Below are positions 12,930 through 55,249 of a stretch of 64,000 bases of DNA, one piece after another. Within the stretch, counting starts at the first letter, position 1, and each line of letters begins with the position of its first letter. The position numbers and the translations under genes are program-made. Below the pieces are notes generated by a model. That model had not been told where the DNA came from. It did not search any database and saw only the letters and a program-made list of their open reading frames with translations. Origin of the DNA: an uncultured Candidatus Saccharibacteria bacterium (GTDB taxonomy: Bacteria; Patescibacteriota; Minisyncoccia; Phycocordibacterales; Zambryskibacteraceae); NCBI GenBank assembly GCA_964349945.1, contig CAYGIH010000001.1, forward strand, positions 169,218 to 233,217, given 5' to 3'.

Positions 12930-13933
12930 TAATTAAACAATTCAATCGTGCTATATACTTTCTTCTTGAAAAAGAGGCAAGGTTGGTCCTGAATAAATAT
13001 AAACCTAAAGTAATATCAGTTGTTGGTTCTGATTTTACTACAAATACAGGCCACGCCCTGTTTACTGCTTTGTCCAAATTTTATTTTGTTAGACCTGCTG
13101 GAAAAAATGTTTCTTTAAATATATTAGGGTTTCAAGACGGTGAAAAAACTTTGTGGGAGTGGGTGTTGGTCTTCATAGAAGGGTTGGCTCTCATAATATT
13201 ACCTAATCATTATCCTGAATTCATTATAGTTGAATCAAAATTTGAAGGAGCGGATTATATAGTCCATGTAGATGAAATGAGTAAATTAAAGACAAAAGAT
13301 TATGAAATTATTTATGATGAACAAAAACTACCTAAAGGTATAACTTTCAAGATTATTAATAATGATCAAGAATTCACTGTTTTGCTTGATGACACAATAG
13401 GGAGATCTCAAATGGAACCAGTATTAAAAGCTTTTGATTTGTGCACTGTTTTGGGCCAAAATCTGTCTATTTTGTCCAAGGCCTTTAATGATCTCCATGA
13501 ACCAAAAAAGGGTTATATGAAGCTCACAAAGGGTATTAAAGGAAGTGTGATAATAGATGATTCTTTGGATGCCTCTATAGAGCTAATTGTTGAAGGAGTT
13601 AGAGATTTGAAGAGCGTGAATATATCCAAAAGAAGAATAGCTGTTATTGGAGACATTTTGGAACTAGAGAAAAATTCTATTAAGGCACACAAACGCATTG
13701 GTCAAGAAATAGATGAGAAAATAGAAATGCTTGTGACTGTGGGTATTAGGGCAAGGCACATTGCTGAAGAAGCTCTTAATAATGGGTATACAGAATCAAA
13801 TGTCTTTCAGTTTGATGAGGCGGGGGAAGCAGGGGGTTTTATCCAAAATTTAATAAAAGCAGGAGATGTGATTTATGTTAGTGGTTCGAATGATATGCAT
13901 ATGGAAAAAGTGGTGGAGGAGATTAAGTTGTGA
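12926..13933 (+). CDS. Mur-ligase-like protein (MurF/MurE C-terminal region) with a degenerate P-loop, N-terminally truncated
   Basis: IIDDSLDAS and VIGDILELEKNSIKAHKRIG resemble the MurF C-terminal domain. The position where GTNGKT belongs reads GSDFTTNT, with no lysine. The protein is only 335 aa. Confidence 0.55.
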   Translation: MIIKQFNRAIYFLLEKEARLVLNKYKPKVISVVGSDFTTNTGHALFTALSKFYFVRPAGKNVSLNILGFQDGEKTLWEWVLVFIEGLALIILPNHYPEFIIVESKFEGADYIVHVDEMSKLKTKDYEIIYDEQKLPKGITFKIINNDQEFTVLLDDTIGRSQMEPVLKAFDLCTVLGQNLSILSKAFNDLHEPKKGYMKLTKGIKGSVIIDDSLDASIELIVEGVRDLKSVNISKRRIAVIGDILELEKNSIKAHKRIGQEIDEKIEMLVTVGIRARHIAEEALNNGYTESNVFQFDEAGEAGGFIQNLIKAGDVIYVSGSNDMHMEKVVEEIKL

Positions 13934-14002
13934 CCCTACAGAGAATCGAACTCTGATTTGATCCTTGAGAAGGATCCGTCCTAACCGTTAGACGATAGGG
14001 CC
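13931..14002 (-). tRNA. tRNA-Glu (anticodon CUC)
   Basis: A manual cloverleaf was drawn from the reverse complement. The acceptor is GGCCCTA/TAGGGTC with one G-U pair. The D-stem is GTCT/GGAC. The anticodon stem is GATCC/GGATC with loop TTCTCAA. The T-arm is CAGAG-TTCGATT-CTCTG. The discriminator is A and no CCA is encoded. Confidence 0.75.
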
Positions 14003-33894: not shown

Positions 33895-35103
33895 CTAGAC
33901 CACTTCCCCCATATATAAAATTTTGAAATGACGGCTTGGAGTATTTTTTCTCCTTTTATTTGCATTTAAACTTGAGCCGAGCATTATTGTCCCCGCTCCG
34001 AATCGTTTATCAATTTTATCTACAACTTTGAAAACTTTCTGTGATTTCTCACTTTTGACCACTTCCCCGAAAAGGTCGTTTTGAACGCCTGAAGTGAGTC
34101 CAGCCAGGGTCACCCCAGATGACCTATATTGAATATTGGGTCTAAAGATCTCTTTAAAGGATACTTCTATAGCCCTCATTATCTCTGAGGGGCTTGTAGA
34201 AGGTCGGTCAAGATTAATTTCTCCACGATGGTATCTAAACTCTGCAGTTTTAAGGAAAAAATATATTCTCTTTGGTGCAAGGTGCATCTGTCGTGCACGA
34301 GCGCACGCACATTCGACGTGCATAGAAAGTTCGGATAAAATTATTTCTTTATTGTTTGTTTTCATTCCAAACATTCTGGTGTGTTGAATACTTTTTTGAT
34401 CATCTGATTCGATACTGACTGGATGGACTGATAATCCTCGTAGTTCGTTCCAAGTATCCACATAAGGACGCGCGAGGTTTGTCTCTACCCAATCTTTCGA
34501 TTTATTTATAAATTCGAGCGCTGTCCTAATACCTAAACTTTGAAGCTTCTGATTTGTTTGCGGACCGATGCCCCAAACTTTGTTTATTGGTAAGTTTTTA
34601 AGGAAGTTCTCTATCTCATTTGGTTTTATGACTGTCAGACCATCAGGCTTTCGTGTCTTCGATGCCACCTTGGCCAAGACCTTGGTTGGGGCTATCCCTA
34701 TGCTGAAAGTCATACCTAATTCACGCTTTAAGTCGGCTTTTAAAGCCTCTCCAATGGCCCAAAATGGCCTTTTAAGGCCTGTTAGGTCCGCAAAGCATTC
34801 ATCTATGGAGTATTCCTCTACCCTGTCGGTATAGCGTCGCACAATATTGTACATTCTCTCGGCAAATATCCCATAAGCGAAGTAATTTGAATTCACCACT
34901 ACTACTTGGGGAAAATCTTTTTTTATTTTAAATATAGGCATACCTCGCACCACTCCGAGGGCTTTGGCTTCTTTACTCATGCTTGTGGCTATTCCCCTCT
35001 CGTGTCCTGTGACCACCGGTTTTCCTCTTAGGGTGACGTCCAAAGAAACTTCACAAGATGCGAAAAAAGAATCACCATCAACATGTAGAATTGTTTTCTG
35101 CAT
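33895..35103 (-). CDS. umuC: Y-family DNA polymerase (UmuC/DinB-like)
   Basis: MQKTILHVDGDSFFASCE...SIDECFADLTG. It is directly preceded by a UmuD-like gene. Confidence 0.8.
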   Translation of the reverse strand: MQKTILHVDGDSFFASCEVSLDVTLRGKPVVTGHERGIATSMSKEAKALGVVRGMPIFKIKKDFPQVVVVNSNYFAYGIFAERMYNIVRRYTDRVEEYSIDECFADLTGLKRPFWAIGEALKADLKRELGMTFSIGIAPTKVLAKVASKTRKPDGLTVIKPNEIENFLKNLPINKVWGIGPQTNQKLQSLGIRTALEFINKSKDWVETNLARPYVDTWNELRGLSVHPVSIESDDQKSIQHTRMFGMKTNNKEIILSELSMHVECACARARQMHLAPKRIYFFLKTAEFRYHRGEINLDRPSTSPSEIMRAIEVSFKEIFRPNIQYRSSGVTLAGLTSGVQNDLFGEVVKSEKSQKVFKVVDKIDKRFGAGTIMLGSSLNANKRRKNTPSRHFKILYMGEVV

Positions 35104-35426
35104 TAATATTTTCTAATGACTGATTTCACCACAGCTTCTACTTGTATTTCTTTCTTACTCTTTTTATCAAATCGTTTGAGGTGATAAGAGTCATCTACAA
35201 GGGCGACAATTAAGTCTCCGTTTTTAGGTGTGGCTCCACGGTCCACAATAATTAAATCTCCACGAAGTATACCTTCGTCCTGCATTGAATCTGTTTCTAC
35301 TCGGAGCATATAAGCTGATTCCATGTTCTCTATAAGGTATTCATCAAGGGTGATGGTGTCATCCATTTCTTCCACAATCACATTCGCAAATCCTGTTTTT
35401 ATTTGTTCCTTTTTAGTCTCTGCCAT
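35103..35426 (-). CDS. umuD: UmuD/LexA-C-terminal-like S24 peptidase
   Basis: VETDSMQDEGILRGDLIIVDR ... K(HLKRF) gives the Ser/Lys dyad arrangement. Its stop overlaps the polymerase start. Confidence 0.7.
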   Translation of the reverse strand: MAETKKEQIKTGFANVIVEEMDDTITLDEYLIENMESAYMLRVETDSMQDEGILRGDLIIVDRGATPKNGDLIVALVDDSYHLKRFDKKSKKEIQVEAVVKSVIRKY

Positions 35427-35452
35427 CCCCCAATTTTAGCATGGTTAAATTG

Positions 35453-35480
35453 TTGACAAGGTTTGGGAAAGGTCTATTAT
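35453..35480 (+). promoter_or_regulatory. sigma70 promoter: TTGACA, a 16-nt spacer, then TATTAT
   Basis: Read from the sequence. It is divergent from umuD. Confidence 0.55.
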
Positions 35481-35486
35481 CGATAT

Positions 35487-35659
35487 GGGTCTGGGCAACA
35501 CGCAACATCGACGAGTGTGAAGTGAAGCGGCGAAACCCCGTCCGGTGGGCTAATCAGCTGTTCTGGCGACAGGTACGCCAGTCGAGCGCAACCCGCGCCA
35601 GGAAGGCAGAGAAGCTGCCCAGACCCGTAGTTCCCCACTGCTTATGCGGTGGGTTTTTT
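35487..35659 (+). ncRNA. candidate structured small RNA 'A' of about 170 nt; its identity is unknown
   Basis: Locally GC-rich. The 5' GGGUCUGGGCA pairs perfectly with the 3' UGCCCAGACCC (11 bp). It ends in the hairpin CCACUGC-uuau-GCGGUGG followed by U6. The overlapping + ORF (35441..35671) is Arg-rich and reads through the terminator. Confidence 0.5.
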
Positions 35660-35667
35660 ATTTGGTA

Positions 35668-35696
35668 TTGACTAACTTTGAATTGTATTATATATT
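35668..35696 (+). promoter_or_regulatory. sigma70 promoter: TTGACT, a 17-nt spacer, then TATATT; for the membrane-protein gene
   Basis: Read from the sequence. A GGAGGA RBS lies before the ATG at 35738. Confidence 0.45.
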
Positions 35697-35737
35697 CAAT
35701 TTAGATTCTAGTTCGCCATCCAGTAGCCGGAGGACAC

Positions 35738-36085
35738 ATGCTCAGTACATTGAGGAGCTATTTGTTTAAGGAAGAGAAGCGAGTGTGGAGAATCTTTCTA
35801 GTAATGATGACTATTGATGTTCTCATCATTATCTTATGGGGTCTCTATGATCAGTCACATCTGCAAACGGACATGATCAAGCTCTCGCATGAAATACTGG
35901 GTGGTTGGTGGCTTACTGTCATGATTCTTATCACCATCTATCTAGTCTTTGGTTTCTTCTTTAGTTGGTGGATGACGGATGACGAAAGGTTCATGTTTGG
36001 TCCAATGATTCCTCCAGGAGCGTATCTGCTCATGGGTCATGTACCCATTGCTATGGTTGTGGGAGTGCACTGGTATCTGATGTGA
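35738..36085 (+). CDS. small polytopic membrane protein of 115 aa
   Basis: Three hydrophobic helices, an RBS, its own promoter and its own terminator. Confidence 0.5.
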   Translation: MLSTLRSYLFKEEKRVWRIFLVMMTIDVLIIILWGLYDQSHLQTDMIKLSHEILGGWWLTVMILITIYLVFGFFFSWWMTDDERFMFGPMIPPGAYLLMGHVPIAMVVGVHWYLM

Positions 36086-36105
36086 TGCATTTGAAATACG
36101 TAGTG

Positions 36106-36133
36106 CCCACTATCGCAAGATGGTGGGTTTTTT
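36106..36133 (+). terminator. intrinsic terminator
   Basis: CCCACTATC-gcaa-GATGGTGGG followed by TTTTTT. Confidence 0.6.
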
Positions 36134-36140
36134 CGTATTT

Positions 36141-36174
36141 AACATTCCAATATTCTTGAGAATGTTGGAATGTT
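36141..36174. promoter_or_regulatory. near-perfect 16-bp inverted repeat (operator-like) overlapping the -35 of promoter B
   Basis: AACATTCCAATATTCT-tg-AGAATGTTGGAATGTT, with 15 of 16 positions complementary. Confidence 0.4.
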
Positions 36175-36201
36175 GACACCGAAAAATTTAAGGTTTAATA
36201 T
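36173..36201 (+). promoter_or_regulatory. sigma70 promoter: TTGACA, a 17-nt spacer, then TAATAT
   Basis: Read from the sequence. Confidence 0.55.
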
Positions 36202-36206
36202 TTTAG

Positions 36207-36346
36207 TGGGCTGGGGCTCTGTCCCTGCTCGAGGGGAGGATAGAGACTCACGTAATGTTCTGCAGAACAGAAGCGTCAGGAGCTATACAACCCAAGGGAT
36301 ATCCCCCAGTCCACACGTCCACTGTCTTATGATGGTGGGTTTTTTT
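36207..36346 (+). ncRNA. candidate structured small RNA 'B' of about 140 nt; possibly a type I antitoxin-like RNA
   Basis: The 5' GUGGGCUGGGG pairs with the 3' CCCCAGUCCAC (11 bp, one G-U). It ends in CCACUGUC-uuau-GAUGGUGGG followed by U7, which nearly matches the terminator of RNA A. The overlapping + ORF (36170..36397) reads through the terminator. Confidence 0.45.
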
Positions 36347-36358
36347 ATTATTAAAAAA

Positions 36359-36380: not shown

Positions 36381-36500
36381 CTAGTCTCGCTCGATGATTC
36401 TCGGTGGTTTGCCGAGTAAATAGGTTCTGACAAACTGCCAAAGTACGACCACGAGTGAGGCGATGATGATGATTTCGGCATCGCTAGGATACTTGCTCAT
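36381..36500 (-). CDS. 39-aa hydrophobic peptide (MSKYPSDAEIIIIASLVVVLWQFVRTYLLGKPPRIIERD); candidate type I toxin-like peptide
   Basis: It is not in the ORF track because it is under 60 aa. It has an AAGGAG RBS 5 nt upstream of the ATG, one TM helix and its own terminator. Confidence 0.4.
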   Translation of the reverse strand: MSKYPSDAEIIIIASLVVVLWQFVRTYLLGKPPRIIERD

Positions 36501-36571: not shown

Positions 36572-36868
36572 TTATTCGGGCGTAGGGATACGGTGGTCGA
36601 CGGATGAAATGTGCACATCACCAGTTTGCTCCTCGGCACGAGTATTCGCATTCTGGCCTGAGAGAGATGGCCTTGGCCGAACAACTGGTTCCCTAACTCC
36701 TACTCCATGAGCAGGATCAGCGGGTGGCCGAGGCCTGTTTCTCGGTCTGTGGTTGATGTGGACAACTGAACCATGTTCATCCTTCTTTTTGTATCTGAAT
36801 GACCATAGCCATATACCAAAGGCACTCAGGATAACCGAAATGAGCACAACAATGAGCCATATGGGCAT
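36572..36868 (-). CDS. membrane-anchored protein with a Pro/Arg-rich tail
   Basis: An AGGAGA RBS and an N-terminal TM (IWLIVVLISVILSAFGIWLW). The terminator hairpin GCCCG-aauaacau-CGGGC plus a U-run overlaps the stop codon. Confidence 0.45.
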   Translation of the reverse strand: MPIWLIVVLISVILSAFGIWLWSFRYKKKDEHGSVVHINHRPRNRPRPPADPAHGVGVREPVVRPRPSLSGQNANTRAEEQTGDVHISSVDHRIPTPE

Positions 36869-52404: not shown

Positions 52405-52884
52405 TTAACTTCTAATATTATACTCCTTTATAAAATATTTGGGTATAAATGGTAAATATTCTTTATAAATGTTTTTGGGGAGAAATTGTATTGATTTAAT
52501 AATCTTCCTGCACTTCTTTGAGCCGCATTTACATTTCATTTGCCATAATTCGTCTAACTCCAATATTGAATAATCAATGGTAAGTTCCTCTCCAGCCTGA
52601 ATATTTCGTATAGCAACAAATGTTACCGCCCCTTTAATTCCTAGATTTGGTTCACAAGAATGATTAACAAAAGACAGGGGGTTGTCTTCATTTGGGTTTA
52701 GCCATAAATTCTTAGAGATGCTCATCCAATTAGGTCCAAATAATGAATCCTTTTTAGAGTGAACAAAAAACTTCACTAGCTTTCCTTTTGCAATGAATGC
52801 AGTCTCACCTTTTTTAAGATTTTTTTTAGAAAAAACTCCTTTTCCGTGTACCTTACTGCTTGAACTGTAGGTTTTTTCTGACAT
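52405..52884 (-). CDS. SET-domain protein (lysine methyltransferase fold) with a post-SET Cys cluster
   Basis: GKGVFS, NHSCEPN, ELTIDY, and CKCGSKKC. Confidence 0.75.
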   Translation of the reverse strand: MSEKTYSSSSKVHGKGVFSKKNLKKGETAFIAKGKLVKFFVHSKKDSLFGPNWMSISKNLWLNPNEDNPLSFVNHSCEPNLGIKGAVTFVAIRNIQAGEELTIDYSILELDELWQMKCKCGSKKCRKIIKSIQFLPKNIYKEYLPFIPKYFIKEYNIRS

Positions 52885-52919
52885 GTATGAAAAATCTTAT
52901 ATGAAAAACAGCCAGGAGT

Positions 52920-53507
52920 CTAGCTCCTGGCTGTACGAAACTTCGCAATTCCCCAAATTGCCAAATGAAGGATGAGATAGTTCACTGGAAGCAATAAGTC
53001 CCACCATTTCTCCCATCGCATTAATACTGTGACAGTAAGAAGTGTGTAGGCAATTGACCAAATGAACCAAGGCTTTGGATCTTCTGTCTCGGGCTTATTC
53101 CATGTACTACGCAAAATTGGCAAAAAGGAGATCCAAATGTCAACTTCGAGCAAGACATTAGCACTTATAGGGTCATCTGACATGATCCAATAAGTTACCA
53201 CTGCCGTGTCTAAAAGAAACATCTCGATATCCAATCTGTCTGGTCGTTGAAATGAACCCTTGATCATCATGTGAACAAAGGTGCCAAAGGCAGCAATCGA
53301 ACACACAATAGGAAGGAATTCCTTCACCCAATCATGAGCCAGATCTTGATAAAGCATAACAGCAACAAAGCTTCCGAGTCCCCAAATCGCCCATGTTGTG
53401 GCATTTGGGTTTATTTCCTTGGACTCAAGCTTCTTGTTGTAGACCCAGTATCCCGCGAGTTGAACAACACCCGCGACGATACCAAACACGATCGCGAGAG
53501 TGTTCAC
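52920..53507 (-). CDS. polytopic Trp-rich membrane protein; a distant paralog of 8719..9330
   Basis: Shared blocks with the 8719 protein are NPNATTWAIWG vs DPEITSWSLWS, RPDRLD vs RKLSRLD, YWIM vs MWWM, and LPILRSTWNKP vs IPTIVLVWSNP. Confidence 0.55.
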   Translation of the reverse strand: MNTLAIVFGIVAGVVQLAGYWVYNKKLESKEINPNATTWAIWGLGSFVAVMLYQDLAHDWVKEFLPIVCSIAAFGTFVHMMIKGSFQRPDRLDIEMFLLDTAVVTYWIMSDDPISANVLLEVDIWISFLPILRSTWNKPETEDPKPWFIWSIAYTLLTVTVLMRWEKWWDLLLPVNYLILHLAIWGIAKFRTARS

Positions 53508-53640
53508 TTTTATCTCCTGTGAAAGAACGTGATATTTCTATCTTGTACATATGAATATTAGCATGTTTTACACTAAATGTCAATCAAACACATTTTAACA
53601 ATCTGTATTACAATAAATATGCCTATATTTAGGTCTTTTT

Positions 53641-54057
53641 ATGCTAATGGTTAAAACTAAACTCGGTTCAAGTTCTATACATGGTATAGGACTCTTCGCA
53701 GATCAATTTATACCCAAGGGCACTACCACCTGGAGATATGTTCCCCATTTTGATTTGAAAGTTGACCCAGACGATTTGTTAAGGTTATCAGAACCAGCTA
53801 GAAAATTGTTTTGGAGATACGCTTATGTTGATAAGCACAATAATCATTATATTTTATGTTTTGATGATGAGAGGTTTATTAATCACTCTGACAATCCTAA
53901 TATTATCCAAAAAAGAGTAGGCAATGAGATTGAAGGCCGTGAAGTGGCGGCTAGAGATATTCAAGTTGGAGAGGAGCTCACAGTAAACTATTATGATTTT
54001 GATAAAGATGCAGAAAGAAAACTAAAAATGACTGGTGTATACGAGTATTTGAAATAA
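53641..54057 (+). CDS. minimal SET-domain protein of 138 aa
   Basis: HGIGLFA, INHSDNPN, and EELTVNY. It has no post-SET cysteines. Confidence 0.7.
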   Translation: MLMVKTKLGSSSIHGIGLFADQFIPKGTTTWRYVPHFDLKVDPDDLLRLSEPARKLFWRYAYVDKHNNHYILCFDDERFINHSDNPNIIQKRVGNEIEGREVAARDIQVGEELTVNYYDFDKDAERKLKMTGVYEYLK

Positions 54058-54166
54058 TTCCTTTATAACTTGATTTATATAAATAATGTTGTATTCTACA
54101 TTAAGAATTAATGGGGCTAGGTATCCCCTACGCGCATCATTCGCTCATTAACAAAAAGGAGGCAGC

Positions 54167-55249
54167 ATGCCGTCGATACAGGCGAAGATTGTTGGGGATT
54201 TTTGTAATCTTCGGTGCACATACTGTCGTGATCGGGATTTTGATCAGGGCGGGAAACGAGTTATGACTCAAGAAGTGCTACAGGCTCTTATCAGTTCGCT
54301 GGCGAATCTGCCTGGAGGACTACAGCGGATGCATTGGCTCGGAGGTGAACCAACGCTTGCTGGCCTGAGTTTCTTTGAGGAAGTTGTCAAACTTCAGTTG
54401 AGTCATGCAAACAAAAAATGGCTCAACACTATTCAAACCAACGCAACTCTCATCAACCGTGAGTGGGCCGAATTCTTCGTAGCAAATGATTTCAAAGTTG
54501 GTGTCAGTGTGGACGGAACATCTCAGACACACGATGCTGATCGGATAAATCTTGCTGGTCACAGCACCTACGACAAAGTTATTAAGGGAGCTAACATCCT
54601 GCGAGAGTATGGTGTTAACCCATCAGTAATTTGTGTTGTGACCAAGAAGAATGCACATCTTGGAGCGGAGATGTTGCGAAGCTTGGTTCAAGCGGGCTTC
54701 ACCAACATTGCATTCAATGCATTTTACAATACGGCGAGCGACCTGCAGAAAGACCCATTCGCAGTGAGTGACGATCTATGGCTACAATTTCTCAAGGATG
54801 TATTTGAGGAATGGATTGCCATTGATCGTCCAGATGTGAAGATTCGAGAACTAGATGGCATCCTTGCTTGGACGCGTGGTCGCAGTGCTCGTTCCTGTGT
54901 CTTTCGTGGCTCGTGTTCCAATTGGATGCTTGTTGACTATGACGGAAAGGTTTACCCATGTGAACGACTTGGAAGATCTTCATATTTTGGCAATGTGAAC
55001 TCAGTTGCATCCTTCTCAGAGATCTTGGATGCATCAACTCACAAGGCATTCACCGCTCAAACACTTCGCATGCCTGACAAATGTAAATCTTGTAGCATGC
55101 AAAGTTTCTGTCACAATGGGTGTGTTGCCCACAGAATTGAAGATGGGGACACTTCGCCTCACTACGCATATTGTGGAAGTCGCTTGTCGTTCTATGATTA
55201 TCTGCTGGAACGCATCGGAATTGTAAATGACGTAGCGGTTCCGATGTAG
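54167..55249 (+). CDS. radical SAM / SPASM-domain enzyme (anSME-like peptide maturase)
   Basis: A CNLRCTYC (CxxxCxxC) cluster near the N-terminus. There are C-terminal Cys clusters (CVFRGSCSNW ... CKSCSMQSFCHNGC). An AAAGGAGG RBS is present. GC is higher than in the flanks. Confidence 0.85.
   Translation: MPSIQAKIVGDFCNLRCTYCRDRDFDQGGKRVMTQEVLQALISSLANLPGGLQRMHWLGGEPTLAGLSFFEEVVKLQLSHANKKWLNTIQTNATLINREWAEFFVANDFKVGVSVDGTSQTHDADRINLAGHSTYDKVIKGANILREYGVNPSVICVVTKKNAHLGAEMLRSLVQAGFTNIAFNAFYNTASDLQKDPFAVSDDLWLQFLKDVFEEWIAIDRPDVKIRELDGILAWTRGRSARSCVFRGSCSNWMLVDYDGKVYPCERLGRSSYFGNVNSVASFSEILDASTHKAFTAQTLRMPDKCKSCSMQSFCHNGCVAHRIEDGDTSPHYAYCGSRLSFYDYLLERIGIVNDVAVPM

What the first reader, a model, noticed from the sequence alone, without database searches (positions are those of the whole stretch)
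35453..35659. Promoter-to-terminator structured RNA 'A' (~170 nt), GC-rich, with 5' and 3' ends paired
A near-consensus sigma70 promoter (TTGACA-16-TATTAT) drives a locally GC-rich segment. The first 11 nt of that segment, GGGUCUGGGCA, are the exact complement of UGCCCAGACCC, which sits just before the terminator hairpin and U-run. Internal helices such as CUGGCG/CGCCAG are also visible. The overlapping + ORF is Arg-rich and runs through the terminator, so it is more likely non-coding. A downstream membrane-protein gene has its own promoter, so this looks like a standalone sRNA rather than a leader. I cannot place it in a known family by eye. There is a loose resemblance to SRP RNA (GCUGUU...CAGG...GGAAGGCAGA), which is weak.
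Basis: seen in the sequence. Interest (0 to 1): 0.6.

Follow-up and report, generated by a model that had tools for sequence, protein, structure and literature searches.

The report
Unclassified small structured RNA gene
This is most likely a small non-coding RNA gene with its own promoter and terminator, found only in a few closely related ultra-small (CPR) bacteria; it matches no known RNA family, its function is unknown, and some close relatives lack it.

Summary
A near-consensus promoter (35453-35480) sits 7 nt before G35487. The first 10-11 nt pair with 35616/7-35626, and an intrinsic terminator follows (35634-35659).

The window comes from a Minisyncoccia (CPR/Patescibacteria) chromosome. 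I found the same unit, divergent from the umuDC operon, in three other species-level variants (L084, L003, L087).

All four variants keep the promoter, GGGYCUGGGCAACA, an internal CGGUGG(UGG)GYU and RRCURCCCAGRCCC. Together these form one fold: P1, a 3-bp P2 enclosing two hairpins, and a long arm stacked on P1. The arms between these blocks differ completely in sequence and length (138-229 nt overall).

- The overlapping ORF is open only in the window.
- No Rfam family matches any variant at E<=10, and ARAGORN finds nothing.
- Three of the four variants have no co-directional downstream gene, so this is not a leader.
- The unit is cleanly absent from two close relatives, so it is not a housekeeping RNA. 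The SRP resemblance fails.

Covariation support is thin (one compensatory pair), and only four variants exist in the data I could reach.

Best reading: a lineage-restricted, dispensable, trans-acting structured sRNA of a new family, probably a protein-binding scaffold. The function is inferred, not shown.

The parts
35453..35480 (+). Sigma-70-type promoter: TTGACA, 16 nt, TATTAT. The -10 box ends 6 nt before the first G of the RNA.
   Evidence: 11 of 12 matches. The same TATTAT-N6-GGG spacing occurs in L084, L003 and L087.
35487..35626 (+). RNA A body, 140 nt from the predicted +1 to the end of the closing helix.
   Evidence: The covariance model R1 matches at 76 bits.
35487..35496 (+). P1 5' strand, GGGUCUGGGC.
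   Evidence: Pairs with 35617-35626. It is invariant in window, L084 and L003, and reads GGGCCUGGGC in L087.
35497..35501 (+). Junction AA plus P2 5' strand CAC. This is part of the invariant block GGGYCUGGGCAACA.
   Evidence: In L087, P2 extends to 6 bp (CACCAU/GUGGUG).
35501..35542 (+). Variable segment 1, holding two small hairpins (H2 and H3). Similarity between variants is at random level.
   Evidence: z between -0.6 and 1.7; folds.
35527..35541 (+). H3 hairpin GCGG-CGAAACC-CCGU: a 4-bp stem with a 7-nt loop.
   Evidence: The equivalent hairpin is GAGGG-UUCGACU-CCUUC in L084 (a tRNA T-arm look-alike) and GAGG-UGAAAUC-CCUC in L087. The stem changes are compensatory (C-G to A-U). L003 differs. 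Read.
35543..35551 (+). Invariant internal block CGGUGGGCU: P2 3' strand GUG plus the 5' strand of the H4 base, GGCU.
   Evidence: Identical in window, L084 and L003; CGGUGGUGGGUU in L087.
35548..35616 (+). H4 long arm. The base GGCU/AGCU stacks directly on P1. The rest varies in sequence and length (69-138 nt between variants).
   Evidence: arm z = -3.0, -2.7, -2.2, -0.6. There is one compensatory change in the base (C-G to U-A in L087).
35617..35626 (+). P1 3' strand, GCCCAGACCC.
35627..35632 (+). Linker GUAGUU between P1 and the terminator.
   Evidence: Identical in window, L084 and L003, but not in L087.
35634..35659 (+). Intrinsic terminator: CCCACUGC-UUAU-GCGGUGGG followed by U6.
   Evidence: Orthologous terminators are present in L084, L003 and L087.

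Best explanation
RNA A is a real, independently transcribed, non-coding structured small RNA gene of a new and narrowly distributed family. It is about 140 nt plus a terminator here, and 138-229 nt in relatives. It occurs in one genus-level clade of Minisyncoccia (CPR bacteria).

**Shown:**
- It has a strong promoter and an intrinsic terminator.
- Three short sequence blocks are invariant across four species-level variants, about 37 nt in all.
- These blocks assemble one core. A 10-bp closing helix P1 stacks on the base of a long arm (H4). A 3-bp helix P2 branches off after two unpaired A residues and encloses two small hairpins.
- Everything outside this core is free to change in sequence and length but stays hairpin-like.
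- It is not translated, is not a leader, and is dispensable.

**Inferred:**
- Conservation sits in the helices and junction rather than in exposed single-stranded loops, and there is no conserved seed or neighbouring target. The RNA therefore most likely works in trans through its folded core, as a binding platform or decoy for a protein or RNP.
- The paired ends and the terminator hairpin would protect it from exonucleases.
- Its partner and physiological role are unknown. The only stable association is the back-to-back arrangement with the promoter of the umuD/umuC operon.
For: **Transcription signals:**

**Orthologous units at the same place (divergent from umuD/umuC) in three further variants:**
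- L003, identical in L210-L213.
- L084.
- L087, identical in L088.
- The window version is identical in L001, L002 and L214.

**Conserved blocks against random-level arms:**

**Selection on the RNA's 5' end:** window versus L003 DNA identity is 88% up to exactly 35501, the end of GGGTCTGGGCAACAC. In the same comparison, 4 of the 6 bases between the -10 box and +1 differ.

**Structure:**
- A common fold can be imposed on all four at a cost of 0.4-4.6 kcal/mol.
- The 17 core pairs are 97% paired, against 34-52% when the partners are slid by 1-3 columns.
- MFE z-scores are -3.8, -3.7, -1.6 and -1.7.
- The long arm folds better than shuffles in three of four variants.
- The H3 stem changes are compensatory while the 7-nt loop size is kept.

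**Not coding:** no conserved ORF.

**Not a leader:** the next gene downstream is convergent in L084, L003 and L087.

**Composition:** G+C is 0.49-0.64 in genomes of 0.35-0.42.
Against: - There are only four distinct variants.
- The conserved helices barely vary, so covariation is not significant: one double change, and 51 of 500 shuffles reach the observed score.
- Two variants fold only marginally better than shuffles (z about -1.6).
- Variable segment 1 shows no energetic signal.
- There are no expression data.
- The unit is absent from two close relatives (L081-L083, L085-L086), so whatever it does is not essential.
- The covariance model found no further member in 247 kb of CPR sequence.
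- Neither of two metagenome pattern scans found a true member.
- The protein-scaffold mechanism is argued by elimination. No partner protein is identified in the 64-kb window.
Confidence: 0.55

Rival explanations
1. A tRNA-like or Y-RNA-like mimic. The paired ends plus a T-arm-like hairpin imitate part of a tRNA, so that the RNA is bound or processed by tRNA-handling enzymes or a Ro/Rsr-type protein. This is a special case of the trans-acting scaffold reading.
For: - L084 carries a textbook T arm, GAGGG-UUCGACU-CCUUC, directly before the invariant CGGUGGGCU.
- L087 (UGAAAUC) and the window (CGAAACC) keep a 7-nt loop with R-A at positions 4-5, as in T-loops (read).
- P1 begins GGGUCUG and ends CAGACCC, followed by an unpaired G and then U, like a CCA-less tRNA precursor.
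- Bacterial YrlA RNAs are built from a terminal stem plus V, T, acceptor-like and D hairpins (PMC4201824).
Against: - ARAGORN finds no tRNA or tmRNA in any variant.
- There is no Rfam tRNA, tmRNA or Y RNA hit at E<=10.
- There is no D-arm-like hairpin with GG after the long arm.
- L003 lacks the 7-nt loop.
- The YrlA motif GNCGAAN0-1G is absent.
- No TROVE or RtcB gene was detected in the 59 window ORFs scanned against Pfam.
Confidence: 0.12
2. A base-pairing regulator or type I antitoxin. The RNA pairs with an mRNA, for instance one of the small hydrophobic peptide genes lying convergent to it, or umuD.
For: - Small hydrophobic ORFs (39 and 98 aa) lie just downstream on the other strand.
- The locus is an SOS-type neighbourhood, where type I toxin-antitoxin pairs are common (general knowledge).
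- A 12-nt stretch of the RNA resembles the start region of umuD (repeat I3).
Against: - The RNA does not overlap those genes, and they persist unchanged in relatives that lack the RNA.
- The conserved parts are base-paired, not exposed.
- No complementarity to the window exceeds chance. The best is 12 nt at E = 0.5, inside an unrelated ORF.
- The umuD-like stretch has the same sense, not antisense, and is not conserved in L084 or L003.
Confidence: 0.1
3. A DNA-level or selfish element. The 11-bp inverted repeats are ends of a small mobile or recombining module and the 'structure' is incidental, or the unit is a decaying, functionless transcript.
For: - Presence and absence vary among close relatives, with clean boundaries.
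- The interior differs between variants.
- The neighbouring block (orphan ORF plus RNA B) is an insertion bounded by near-identical terminators.
Against: - There is no target-site duplication at the boundaries.
- There is no second copy in 64 kb or in 247 kb of related contigs.
- The internal 9-12-nt block, the promoter and the terminator are also conserved, and always in the same register with the repeats. That fits an RNA, not transposon ends.
- The unit sits at the same chromosomal place in lineages whose UmuD is only 70% identical.
Confidence: 0.1
4. A cis-acting leader or riboswitch. The folded core is an aptamer, and the terminator is controlled by competition between the internal CGGUGGG and the terminator's 5' arm CCCACUG. 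This would gate read-through into the 115-aa membrane protein gene.
For: - CGGUGGG (35543-35549) can pair with CCCACUG (35634-35640). The same is possible in L084 and L003.
- A membrane-protein ORF follows in the window.
Against: - In L084, L003 and L087 the RNA is followed by a convergent gene and a bidirectional terminator, with no co-directional gene.
- L087 has a different terminator with no such complementarity.
- The 115-aa ORF is an orphan with its own promoter, and its block is an insertion.
- No known aptamer class matches.
Confidence: 0.05
5. A divergent housekeeping RNA (SRP RNA, 6S RNA, RNase P RNA, tmRNA or 5S rRNA) that Rfam models miss in CPR bacteria.
For: - The helix topology equals that of the prokaryotic SRP Alu domain: terminal helix 1, a three-way junction, a short helix 2 enclosing two hairpins, and a long helix 5 (PMC4231752).
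Against: - No hit to any of these families at E<=10 in four variants.
- No GNAR-capped helix 8.
- The Alu hallmarks are absent, namely the conserved UGU between the two hairpins and the 3-5-bp loop-loop pairing (read).
- The whole unit is missing in L081-L083 and L085-L086.
- Length varies from 138 to 229 nt between sister species.
Confidence: 0.03
6. A small protein gene: the 76-aa Arg-rich ORF 35441-35671.
For: The frame is open across the whole unit in the window.
Against: - The ORF starts upstream of the -35 box.
- It has stops in the same frame in L084, L003 and L087.
- It was not called as a gene in the public assemblies of this locus.
Confidence: 0.02

Closest known systems
Prokaryotic SRP RNA Alu domain (Bacillus/archaeal type; PMC4231752)
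   Same: - The helix topology is the same. A 9-10-bp helix is formed by the 5' and 3' termini.
- A three-way junction follows.
- A short helix encloses two small hairpins.
- A long helix continues from the junction.
- The RNA is G+C-rich and compact.
   Different: - There is no S domain (helix 8 with GNAR loop and Ffh-binding loops).
- There is no conserved UGU between the two hairpins, and no conserved loop-loop pairing.
- No covariance-model hit.
- The RNA is dispensable, being absent in close relatives.
- This is a resemblance of topology only, not evidence of homology or of ribosome binding.
Bacterial Y RNAs (YrlA/Yrn1; PMC4201824)
   Same: - Size is about 100-200 nt, with a long stem formed by the two ends.
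- The interior is modular and variable.
- One variant has a T-arm-like hairpin.
- It is a non-essential accessory RNA thought to act as a protein tether.
   Different: - There is no D-arm, no GNCGAAN0-1G motif and no recognisable Ro-binding helix.
- There is no rsr (TROVE) or rtcB neighbour.
- The order of hairpins differs (two hairpins, then the long arm).
- No Rfam hit.
6S RNA
   Same: It is a stand-alone, abundant-type sRNA of similar size with paired ends. Sequence conservation between lineages is poor.
   Different: - 6S is a single rod with a central bubble that mimics an open promoter. This RNA is branched (two junctions) and has no such bubble.
- No covariance-model hit.
- It is not conserved in sister species.
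Transcription-terminating riboswitches
   Same: The order is promoter, G+C-rich multi-helix junction closed by a P1 helix, then an intrinsic terminator. Possible alternative pairing with the terminator exists in three variants.
   Different: - There is no regulated gene downstream in three of four variants.
- The terminator lies outside P1 and does not overlap it.
- No known aptamer matches.

Membership tests
SRP RNA (bacterial small or large) | Match to the Rfam SRP covariance models. | tested here: not met
   No SRP-clan hit overlaps the RNA at the gathering score or at E<=10 in the window, L003, L084 or L087.
SRP RNA (bacterial small or large) | Helix 8 with a GNAR tetraloop and the conserved symmetric and asymmetric loops that bind Ffh. 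| tested here: not met
   The apex of the long arm differs in all four variants and none has the motif. GGAAGGCAGA lies on the 3' side of the window's arm only.
SRP RNA (bacterial small or large) | Alu-domain hallmarks: a conserved UGU between helices 3 and 4, and a loop-loop pseudoknot (PMC4231752). | tested here: not met
   The connectors between the two hairpins are GAAGUGAA, AG/AUAG, CUUA and ACAAGUUU. The loops show no conserved complementarity (sequences; criteria).
SRP RNA (bacterial small or large) | Essential gene, expected in every close relative. | tested here: not met
   The unit is absent from the syntenic site in L081-L083 and L085-L086. A copy elsewhere in those genomes could not be checked.
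6S RNA | Rod-like fold with a large central bubble, and a covariance-model match. | tested here: not met
   The fold is branched in all variants, and there is no 6S hit.
tRNA / tmRNA | Cloverleaf or tRNA-like domain recognised by ARAGORN or Rfam. | tested here: not met
   ARAGORN finds 0 genes in L001, L003, L084 and L087. Rfam finds only the unrelated tRNA at 13931-14002.
Bacterial Y RNA (YrlA type) | T-arm and D-arm mimics flanking an acceptor-like hairpin. | tested here: not met
   A T-arm look-alike occurs in L084 only, with 7-nt loops in two others. No D-arm-like hairpin follows the long arm (criteria).
Bacterial Y RNA (YrlA type) | Encoded next to an rsr (TROVE-domain) gene. | tested here: not met
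   Pfam scans of 59 ORFs across the 64-kb window show no TROVE or RtcB. The rest of the genome was not available.
Riboswitch / attenuator leader | A co-directional gene downstream whose expression the element controls. | tested here: not met
   Convergent genes follow in L084, L003 and L087. The ORF in the window is an orphan with its own promoter.
Riboswitch / attenuator leader | Conserved mutually exclusive terminator and antiterminator pairing. | tested here: inconclusive
   CGGUGGG/CCCACUG pairing is possible in the window, L084 and L003, but not in L087.
Retron or other RT-associated ncRNA | An adjacent reverse transcriptase gene on the same transcript. | tested here: not met
   A terminator follows the RNA directly. 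None of the 59 window ORFs scanned against Pfam has an RT domain.
Small protein gene | A reading frame conserved among orthologues. | tested here: not met
   The frame is open only in the window. Stops occur in L084, L003 and L087.
Stand-alone structured sRNA gene (generic) | Own promoter and terminator, conserved in orthologous position. | tested here: met
Stand-alone structured sRNA gene (generic) | Statistically supported covariation in the helices. | tested here: inconclusive
   One compensatory pair and three wobble changes in 17 core pairs. 51 of 500 shuffles reach the observed score. Only four variants are available.
Stand-alone structured sRNA gene (generic) | A discrete transcript with defined ends. 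| not testable with these tools
   No expression data are available.

The most novel reading that the evidence does not exclude
RNA A would be the founding member of a new class of CPR-specific RNAs. Its invariant two-junction core has the same topology as the protein-free prokaryotic SRP Alu domain, which itself resembles a tRNA. On this reading the core docks on the translation or tRNA-processing machinery, or on a dedicated protein, while its freely evolving arms tune or diversify that interaction. It would be an accessory, strain-variable RNP component in bacteria with minimal genomes.
Probability: 0.12. Interest if true: 0.7.

Novelty: new member of a known kind. Interest (0 to 1): 0.38.

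Why it matters
CPR/Patescibacteria make up a large share of bacterial diversity, yet almost nothing is known about their non-coding RNAs beyond rRNA, tRNA and the universal RNPs.

If RNA A is real, it is a cleanly delimited and strongly promoted structured RNA with a small invariant core, and it is unknown to Rfam. That makes it a tractable entry point, because the 37 conserved nucleotides define what to mutate and what to use as bait.

Its presence or absence among sister species, and its fixed position back-to-back with the umuDC promoter, give natural controls.

On present evidence it is a narrow-range orphan sRNA. It is worth recording but is not a surprise.

Tried and rejected
- **Rfam:** searched at the gathering score on the whole window, and at E<=10 on the window locus, L003, L084 and L087. 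Nothing overlaps the RNA.
- **ARAGORN:** nothing.
- **Viral contig scans with two 15-mers:** 27 and 32 hits, all chance.
- **Metagenome scan with TATTAT-N6-GGGNCTGGGCAACA:** 0 hits.
- **Second metagenome scan (5' block plus CGGTGG):** 120 hits, all in high-GC coding DNA or human Alu.
- **Genome contigs via UmuC:** 19 loci, and only L003 carries the RNA.
- **Protein-neighbour route:** I used UmuD, the 92-aa neighbour and the 115-aa ORF, followed by contig look-ups. This gave L084 and L087/L088 as new variants, plus identical copies of known ones.
- **Descriptor search allowing P1 to covary, and covariance model R1 over 247 kb of CPR loci:** no further members.
- **blastn against phages and plasmids:** no match.
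- **Antisense target search within the window:** chance level.
- **Ideas considered by reading and dropped:**
  - K-turn in the H4 internal loop: the GA on the bulged strand is missing.
  - Hammerhead, twister or ZTP-like cores: no motif and no Rfam hit.
  - 5S rRNA: GAAGUGAAGC and GCGGUGG-like strings occur in the wrong order and only in the window.
  - LexA-type operator shared with umuD: seen in L089 and L087, but not recognisable in the window.
  - 'Hypervariable' arms: their divergence is compatible with the roughly 67-77% identity of the neighbouring non-conserved DNA plus indels, so I do not claim accelerated evolution.
Full report
**What is in the window**

- TTGACA (35453-35458), a 16-nt spacer and TATTAT (35475-35480) match 11 of 12 consensus positions.
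- Seven nucleotides after the -10 box, GGGTCTGGGCA (35487-35497) begins. Its exact complement TGCCCAGACCC lies at 35616-35626.
- Six bases later (GUAGUU) an intrinsic terminator follows: an 8-bp stem (6 G-C, 1 A-U and 1 G-U pair), loop UUAU and a U6 run, at 35634-35659.
- The segment has 0.62-0.63 G+C in a region of about 0.40.
- It folds to -79.6 kcal/mol, z = -3.9 against dinucleotide shuffles. Without the terminator it folds to -62.6 kcal/mol, z = -3.8.

A perfect 11-nt inverted repeat at this spacing is not remarkable alone. The window has 10, and block shuffles give 7.1 +/- 3.5. This one, however, is the only G+C-rich case, and it sits exactly between a promoter and a terminator. A scan for that three-part architecture over both strands of the 64 kb returns only this unit, a neighbouring one (RNA B, 36206-36340) and one row of low-complexity T/A-run sequence.

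**Where the window comes from**

The flanking genes are ordinary chromosomal genes. They include aminoacyl-tRNA synthetases, MreB/MreC, PBPs, DnaB, RecR, ribosomal proteins, FtsW, MurG and ScpAB.

Immediately upstream, on the other strand, lie an S24 peptidase (UmuD-like, 35103-35426) and a Y-family polymerase (UmuC-like, 33895-35103).

The nearest genome records are MAGs named Minisyncoccia, Paceibacterota or other Patescibacteria. The organism is therefore a CPR bacterium.

**Homologues**

I reached relatives through the neighbouring proteins. The routes were UmuC in the species-representative genomes, then UmuD and a conserved 92-aa neighbour in the large protein collection, followed by contig look-ups.

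Four distinct versions of the RNA exist in what I could reach:
- The window, identical in L001, L002 and L214.
- L084, where UmuD is 94% identical.
- L003, identical in L210-L213, where UmuC is 92% identical.
- L087, identical in L088, where UmuD is 70% identical.

In all four the unit is transcribed away from the umuDC operon. In L087/L088 an EVE-domain gene has been added at the head of that operon, and the RNA is divergent from it.

Two other relatives have no RNA at all: L081-L083 (UmuD 94%) and L085-L086 (79%). In them the umuD upstream region runs straight into the downstream bidirectional terminator. The simplest history is an ancestral gene that was lost twice. Either way it is dispensable.

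**What is conserved**

All four variants keep TATTAT-N6-GGG and three blocks:
- GGGYCUGGGCAACA at the 5' end.
- CGGUGG(UGG)GYU in the middle.
- RRCURCCCAGRCCC at the 3' end.

The two segments in between have random-level similarity between variants (z from -0.8 to 1.7). The one exception is the second segment of the window against L084 (z = 3.4). Lengths are 38-62 nt for the first segment and 61-130 nt for the second.

Between the window and L003, DNA identity is 88% through umuDC and stops being alignable exactly at 35501, the last base of the 5' block. Yet 4 of the 6 bases between the -10 box and +1 differ. Selection therefore acts on the RNA's first 15 nt and not merely on the promoter.

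The right-hand flank of the locus is only 67-77% identical between these genomes. The unalignable arms therefore need no special diversifying mechanism. They behave like unconstrained sequence with indels.

**The fold**

The three blocks build one core.
- P1 is 10 bp (positions 1-10 with 131-140 of the window RNA).
- Two unpaired A residues follow.
- A 3-bp helix P2 (CAC/GUG, CAU/GUG in L084) extends to 6 bp in L087 by a matched CAU...GGU insertion. P2 encloses two small hairpins, H2 and H3.
- A long arm H4 has a 4-bp base (GGCU/AGCU) that continues P1 with no unpaired nucleotide on the 3' strand.

Imposing this scheme costs 4.6, 4.0, 0.4 and 1.9 kcal/mol relative to the unconstrained optimum.

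On an alignment of the core, 97% of the 68 pair cells are standard pairs, against 34-52% when the partners are slid by 1-3 columns. The variation is small, though: one double change (C-G to U-A in the H4 base), three wobble changes and two broken cells. 51 of 500 column shuffles reach the observed covariation score.

Further points, from reading:
- H3 keeps a 4-5-bp stem and a 7-nt loop in three variants, with compensatory stem changes (GCGG/CCGU, GAGGG/CCUUC, GAGG/CCUC).
- In L084 this hairpin is indistinguishable from a tRNA T arm (G-UUCGACU-C).
- The H4 arm folds better than shuffles in three of four variants (z = -3.0, -2.7, -2.2, -0.6). The first variable segment does not.

Whole-RNA z-scores are -3.8, -3.7, -1.6 and -1.7.

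In short, the architecture is conserved and the core is under sequence constraint. Formal covariation evidence is weak because there are too few variants and the variation falls in uninformative places.

**What it is not**

*Not coding.* The 76-aa ORF begins upstream of the -35 box and is interrupted in the same frame in the other three variants.

*Not a leader.* In L084, L003 and L087 the next gene is convergent and is preceded by a bidirectional terminator. In the window, the 115-aa membrane ORF that follows has its own promoter and terminator and has no homologue in 5.8 billion proteins other than itself. It lies in a block (ORF plus RNA B) that L084 and L003 lack. The possible antiterminator pairing (CGGUGGG with CCCACUG) is not available in L087.

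*Not a known RNA.* No Rfam family matches any variant, even at E<=10, and ARAGORN finds nothing.

The topology does equal that of the prokaryotic SRP Alu domain: helix 1 formed by the termini, two three-way junctions, two hairpins and helix 5 (PMC4231752). But the defining UGU and the loop-loop pseudoknot of that domain are absent.

*Not a YrlA-type Y RNA.* Those RNAs share the terminal stem and a T arm (PMC4201824). Here the D arm, the GNCGAAN0-1G motif and an rsr neighbour are all missing.

*No associated enzyme genes.* No reverse transcriptase, Cas, TROVE or RtcB domain appears in the 59 window ORFs I scanned against Pfam.

*Not a housekeeping RNA.* Absence from sister species excludes this reading at this locus.

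**How it most likely works**

Shown:
- It is an autonomous transcription unit with a strong promoter.
- It has an invariant folded core and freely evolving hairpin arms.
- It is dispensable.
- It keeps a constant back-to-back position with the umuDC promoter. The -35 box of the RNA promoter lies 14 bp from the TGcTAAAAT box of an apparently leaderless umuD.

Inferred:
- What is conserved is the paired junction rather than an accessible single strand, and no target complementarity exceeds chance. The RNA therefore most plausibly acts in trans through its shape, as a platform or decoy for a protein or RNP.
- The closed ends and terminator would confer stability.
- A tRNA-like mode of recognition is a sub-hypothesis suggested by the T-loop-type hairpin.
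- I cannot name the partner. This is the weakest step.

**Limits**

- Only four variants are available, and there are no expression data.
- The model search covered only 247 kb of related DNA.
- The family may be wider than I could see.

**Verdict**

The reading of a stand-alone non-coding structured RNA is supported, and the SRP lead is rejected. On present evidence this is a narrowly distributed orphan sRNA family. It is a new entry of a familiar kind, of moderate interest.

Noticed in passing
window 36173-36347: There is a second unit of the same architecture, 'RNA B'. It has promoter TTGACA-17-TAATAT (36173-36201), a roughly 110-nt rod-like hairpin closed by GUGGGCUGGGG/CCCCAGUCCAC (36206-36316), and a terminator (36317-36340 plus a T run). 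MFE is -60.5 kcal/mol, z = -3.9. No Rfam hit. It was seen only in the window's own strain, and its promoter resembles that of RNA A (AAGGTnTAnTAT).
   Followed up: partly
window 35660-36316: The block holding the 115-aa three-TM ORF (35738-36085, with its own promoter 35668-35696 and terminator 36105-36128) plus RNA B is absent from L084 and L003. It is bounded by two near-identical terminators (35634-35659 and 36317-36345). This looks like an insertion, or a deletion by recombination between terminators. The ORF has no homologue except itself.
   Followed up: partly
window 35424-35460, minus strand: umuD appears leaderless. An extended -10 box TGcTAAAAT is followed by 6 nt and then the ATG, with no Shine-Dalgarno spacing. 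Its promoter is back-to-back with RNA A's promoter, with 14 bp between the umuD -10 box and the RNA -35 box. The EVE-umuDC operon of L087 shows the same arrangement.
   Followed up: no
L081-L083 and L085-L086 (upstream of umuD): Close relatives lack the whole RNA unit, from promoter through terminator. The junction is clean and there is no target-site duplication.
   Followed up: yes
L087 2881-3336 and L088 1081-1722: An EVE (PUA-like) domain gene has been added at the head of the umuD-umuC operon in the most distant variant. The RNA is divergent from it instead of from umuD.
   Followed up: no
window 36129-36186: A 28-nt AT-rich inverted repeat (82% complementary, 2-nt spacer) overlaps the -35 box of RNA B's promoter. 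A sub-threshold Prevotella-2 hit (34.6 bits against 72.1 required) covers 36077-36193 and is probably just a terminator plus a hairpin.
   Followed up: no
window 36381-36500 and 36572-36868, minus strand: Small hydrophobic ORFs (39 aa and 98 aa, the latter with a Pro/Arg-rich tail) lie convergent to the RNAs. Relatives keep counterparts whether or not they have the RNA.
   Followed up: partly
window 35601-35612 versus 35417-35428: GGAAGGCAGAGA in RNA A is 11 of 12 identical, in the same sense, to the umuD mRNA start GGAUGGCAGAGA. This is not conserved in L084 or L003, so it is probably chance.
   Followed up: yes
L089 1-60: The umuD promoter of a more distant relative carries a perfect palindrome, ACCATGGTGAAC-N4-GTTCACCATGGT. 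This is a GAAC-N4-GTTC LexA-type box. No such box is recognisable in the window.
   Followed up: no
L113, L136, L164, L198: Some metagenome contigs that matched my pattern are human Alu DNA (…GAGACGGGCCTGGGCAACATAGCAA…). They are contamination in the assemblies. The resemblance of the RNA's 5' block to the Alu/7SL 3' end is coincidental.
   Followed up: yes
window 52405-55249: Two SET-domain proteins (52405-52884 on the minus strand, 53641-54057 on the plus strand) lie next to a radical-SAM/SPASM enzyme (54167-55249). This is an unusual trio for a minimal genome.
   Followed up: no
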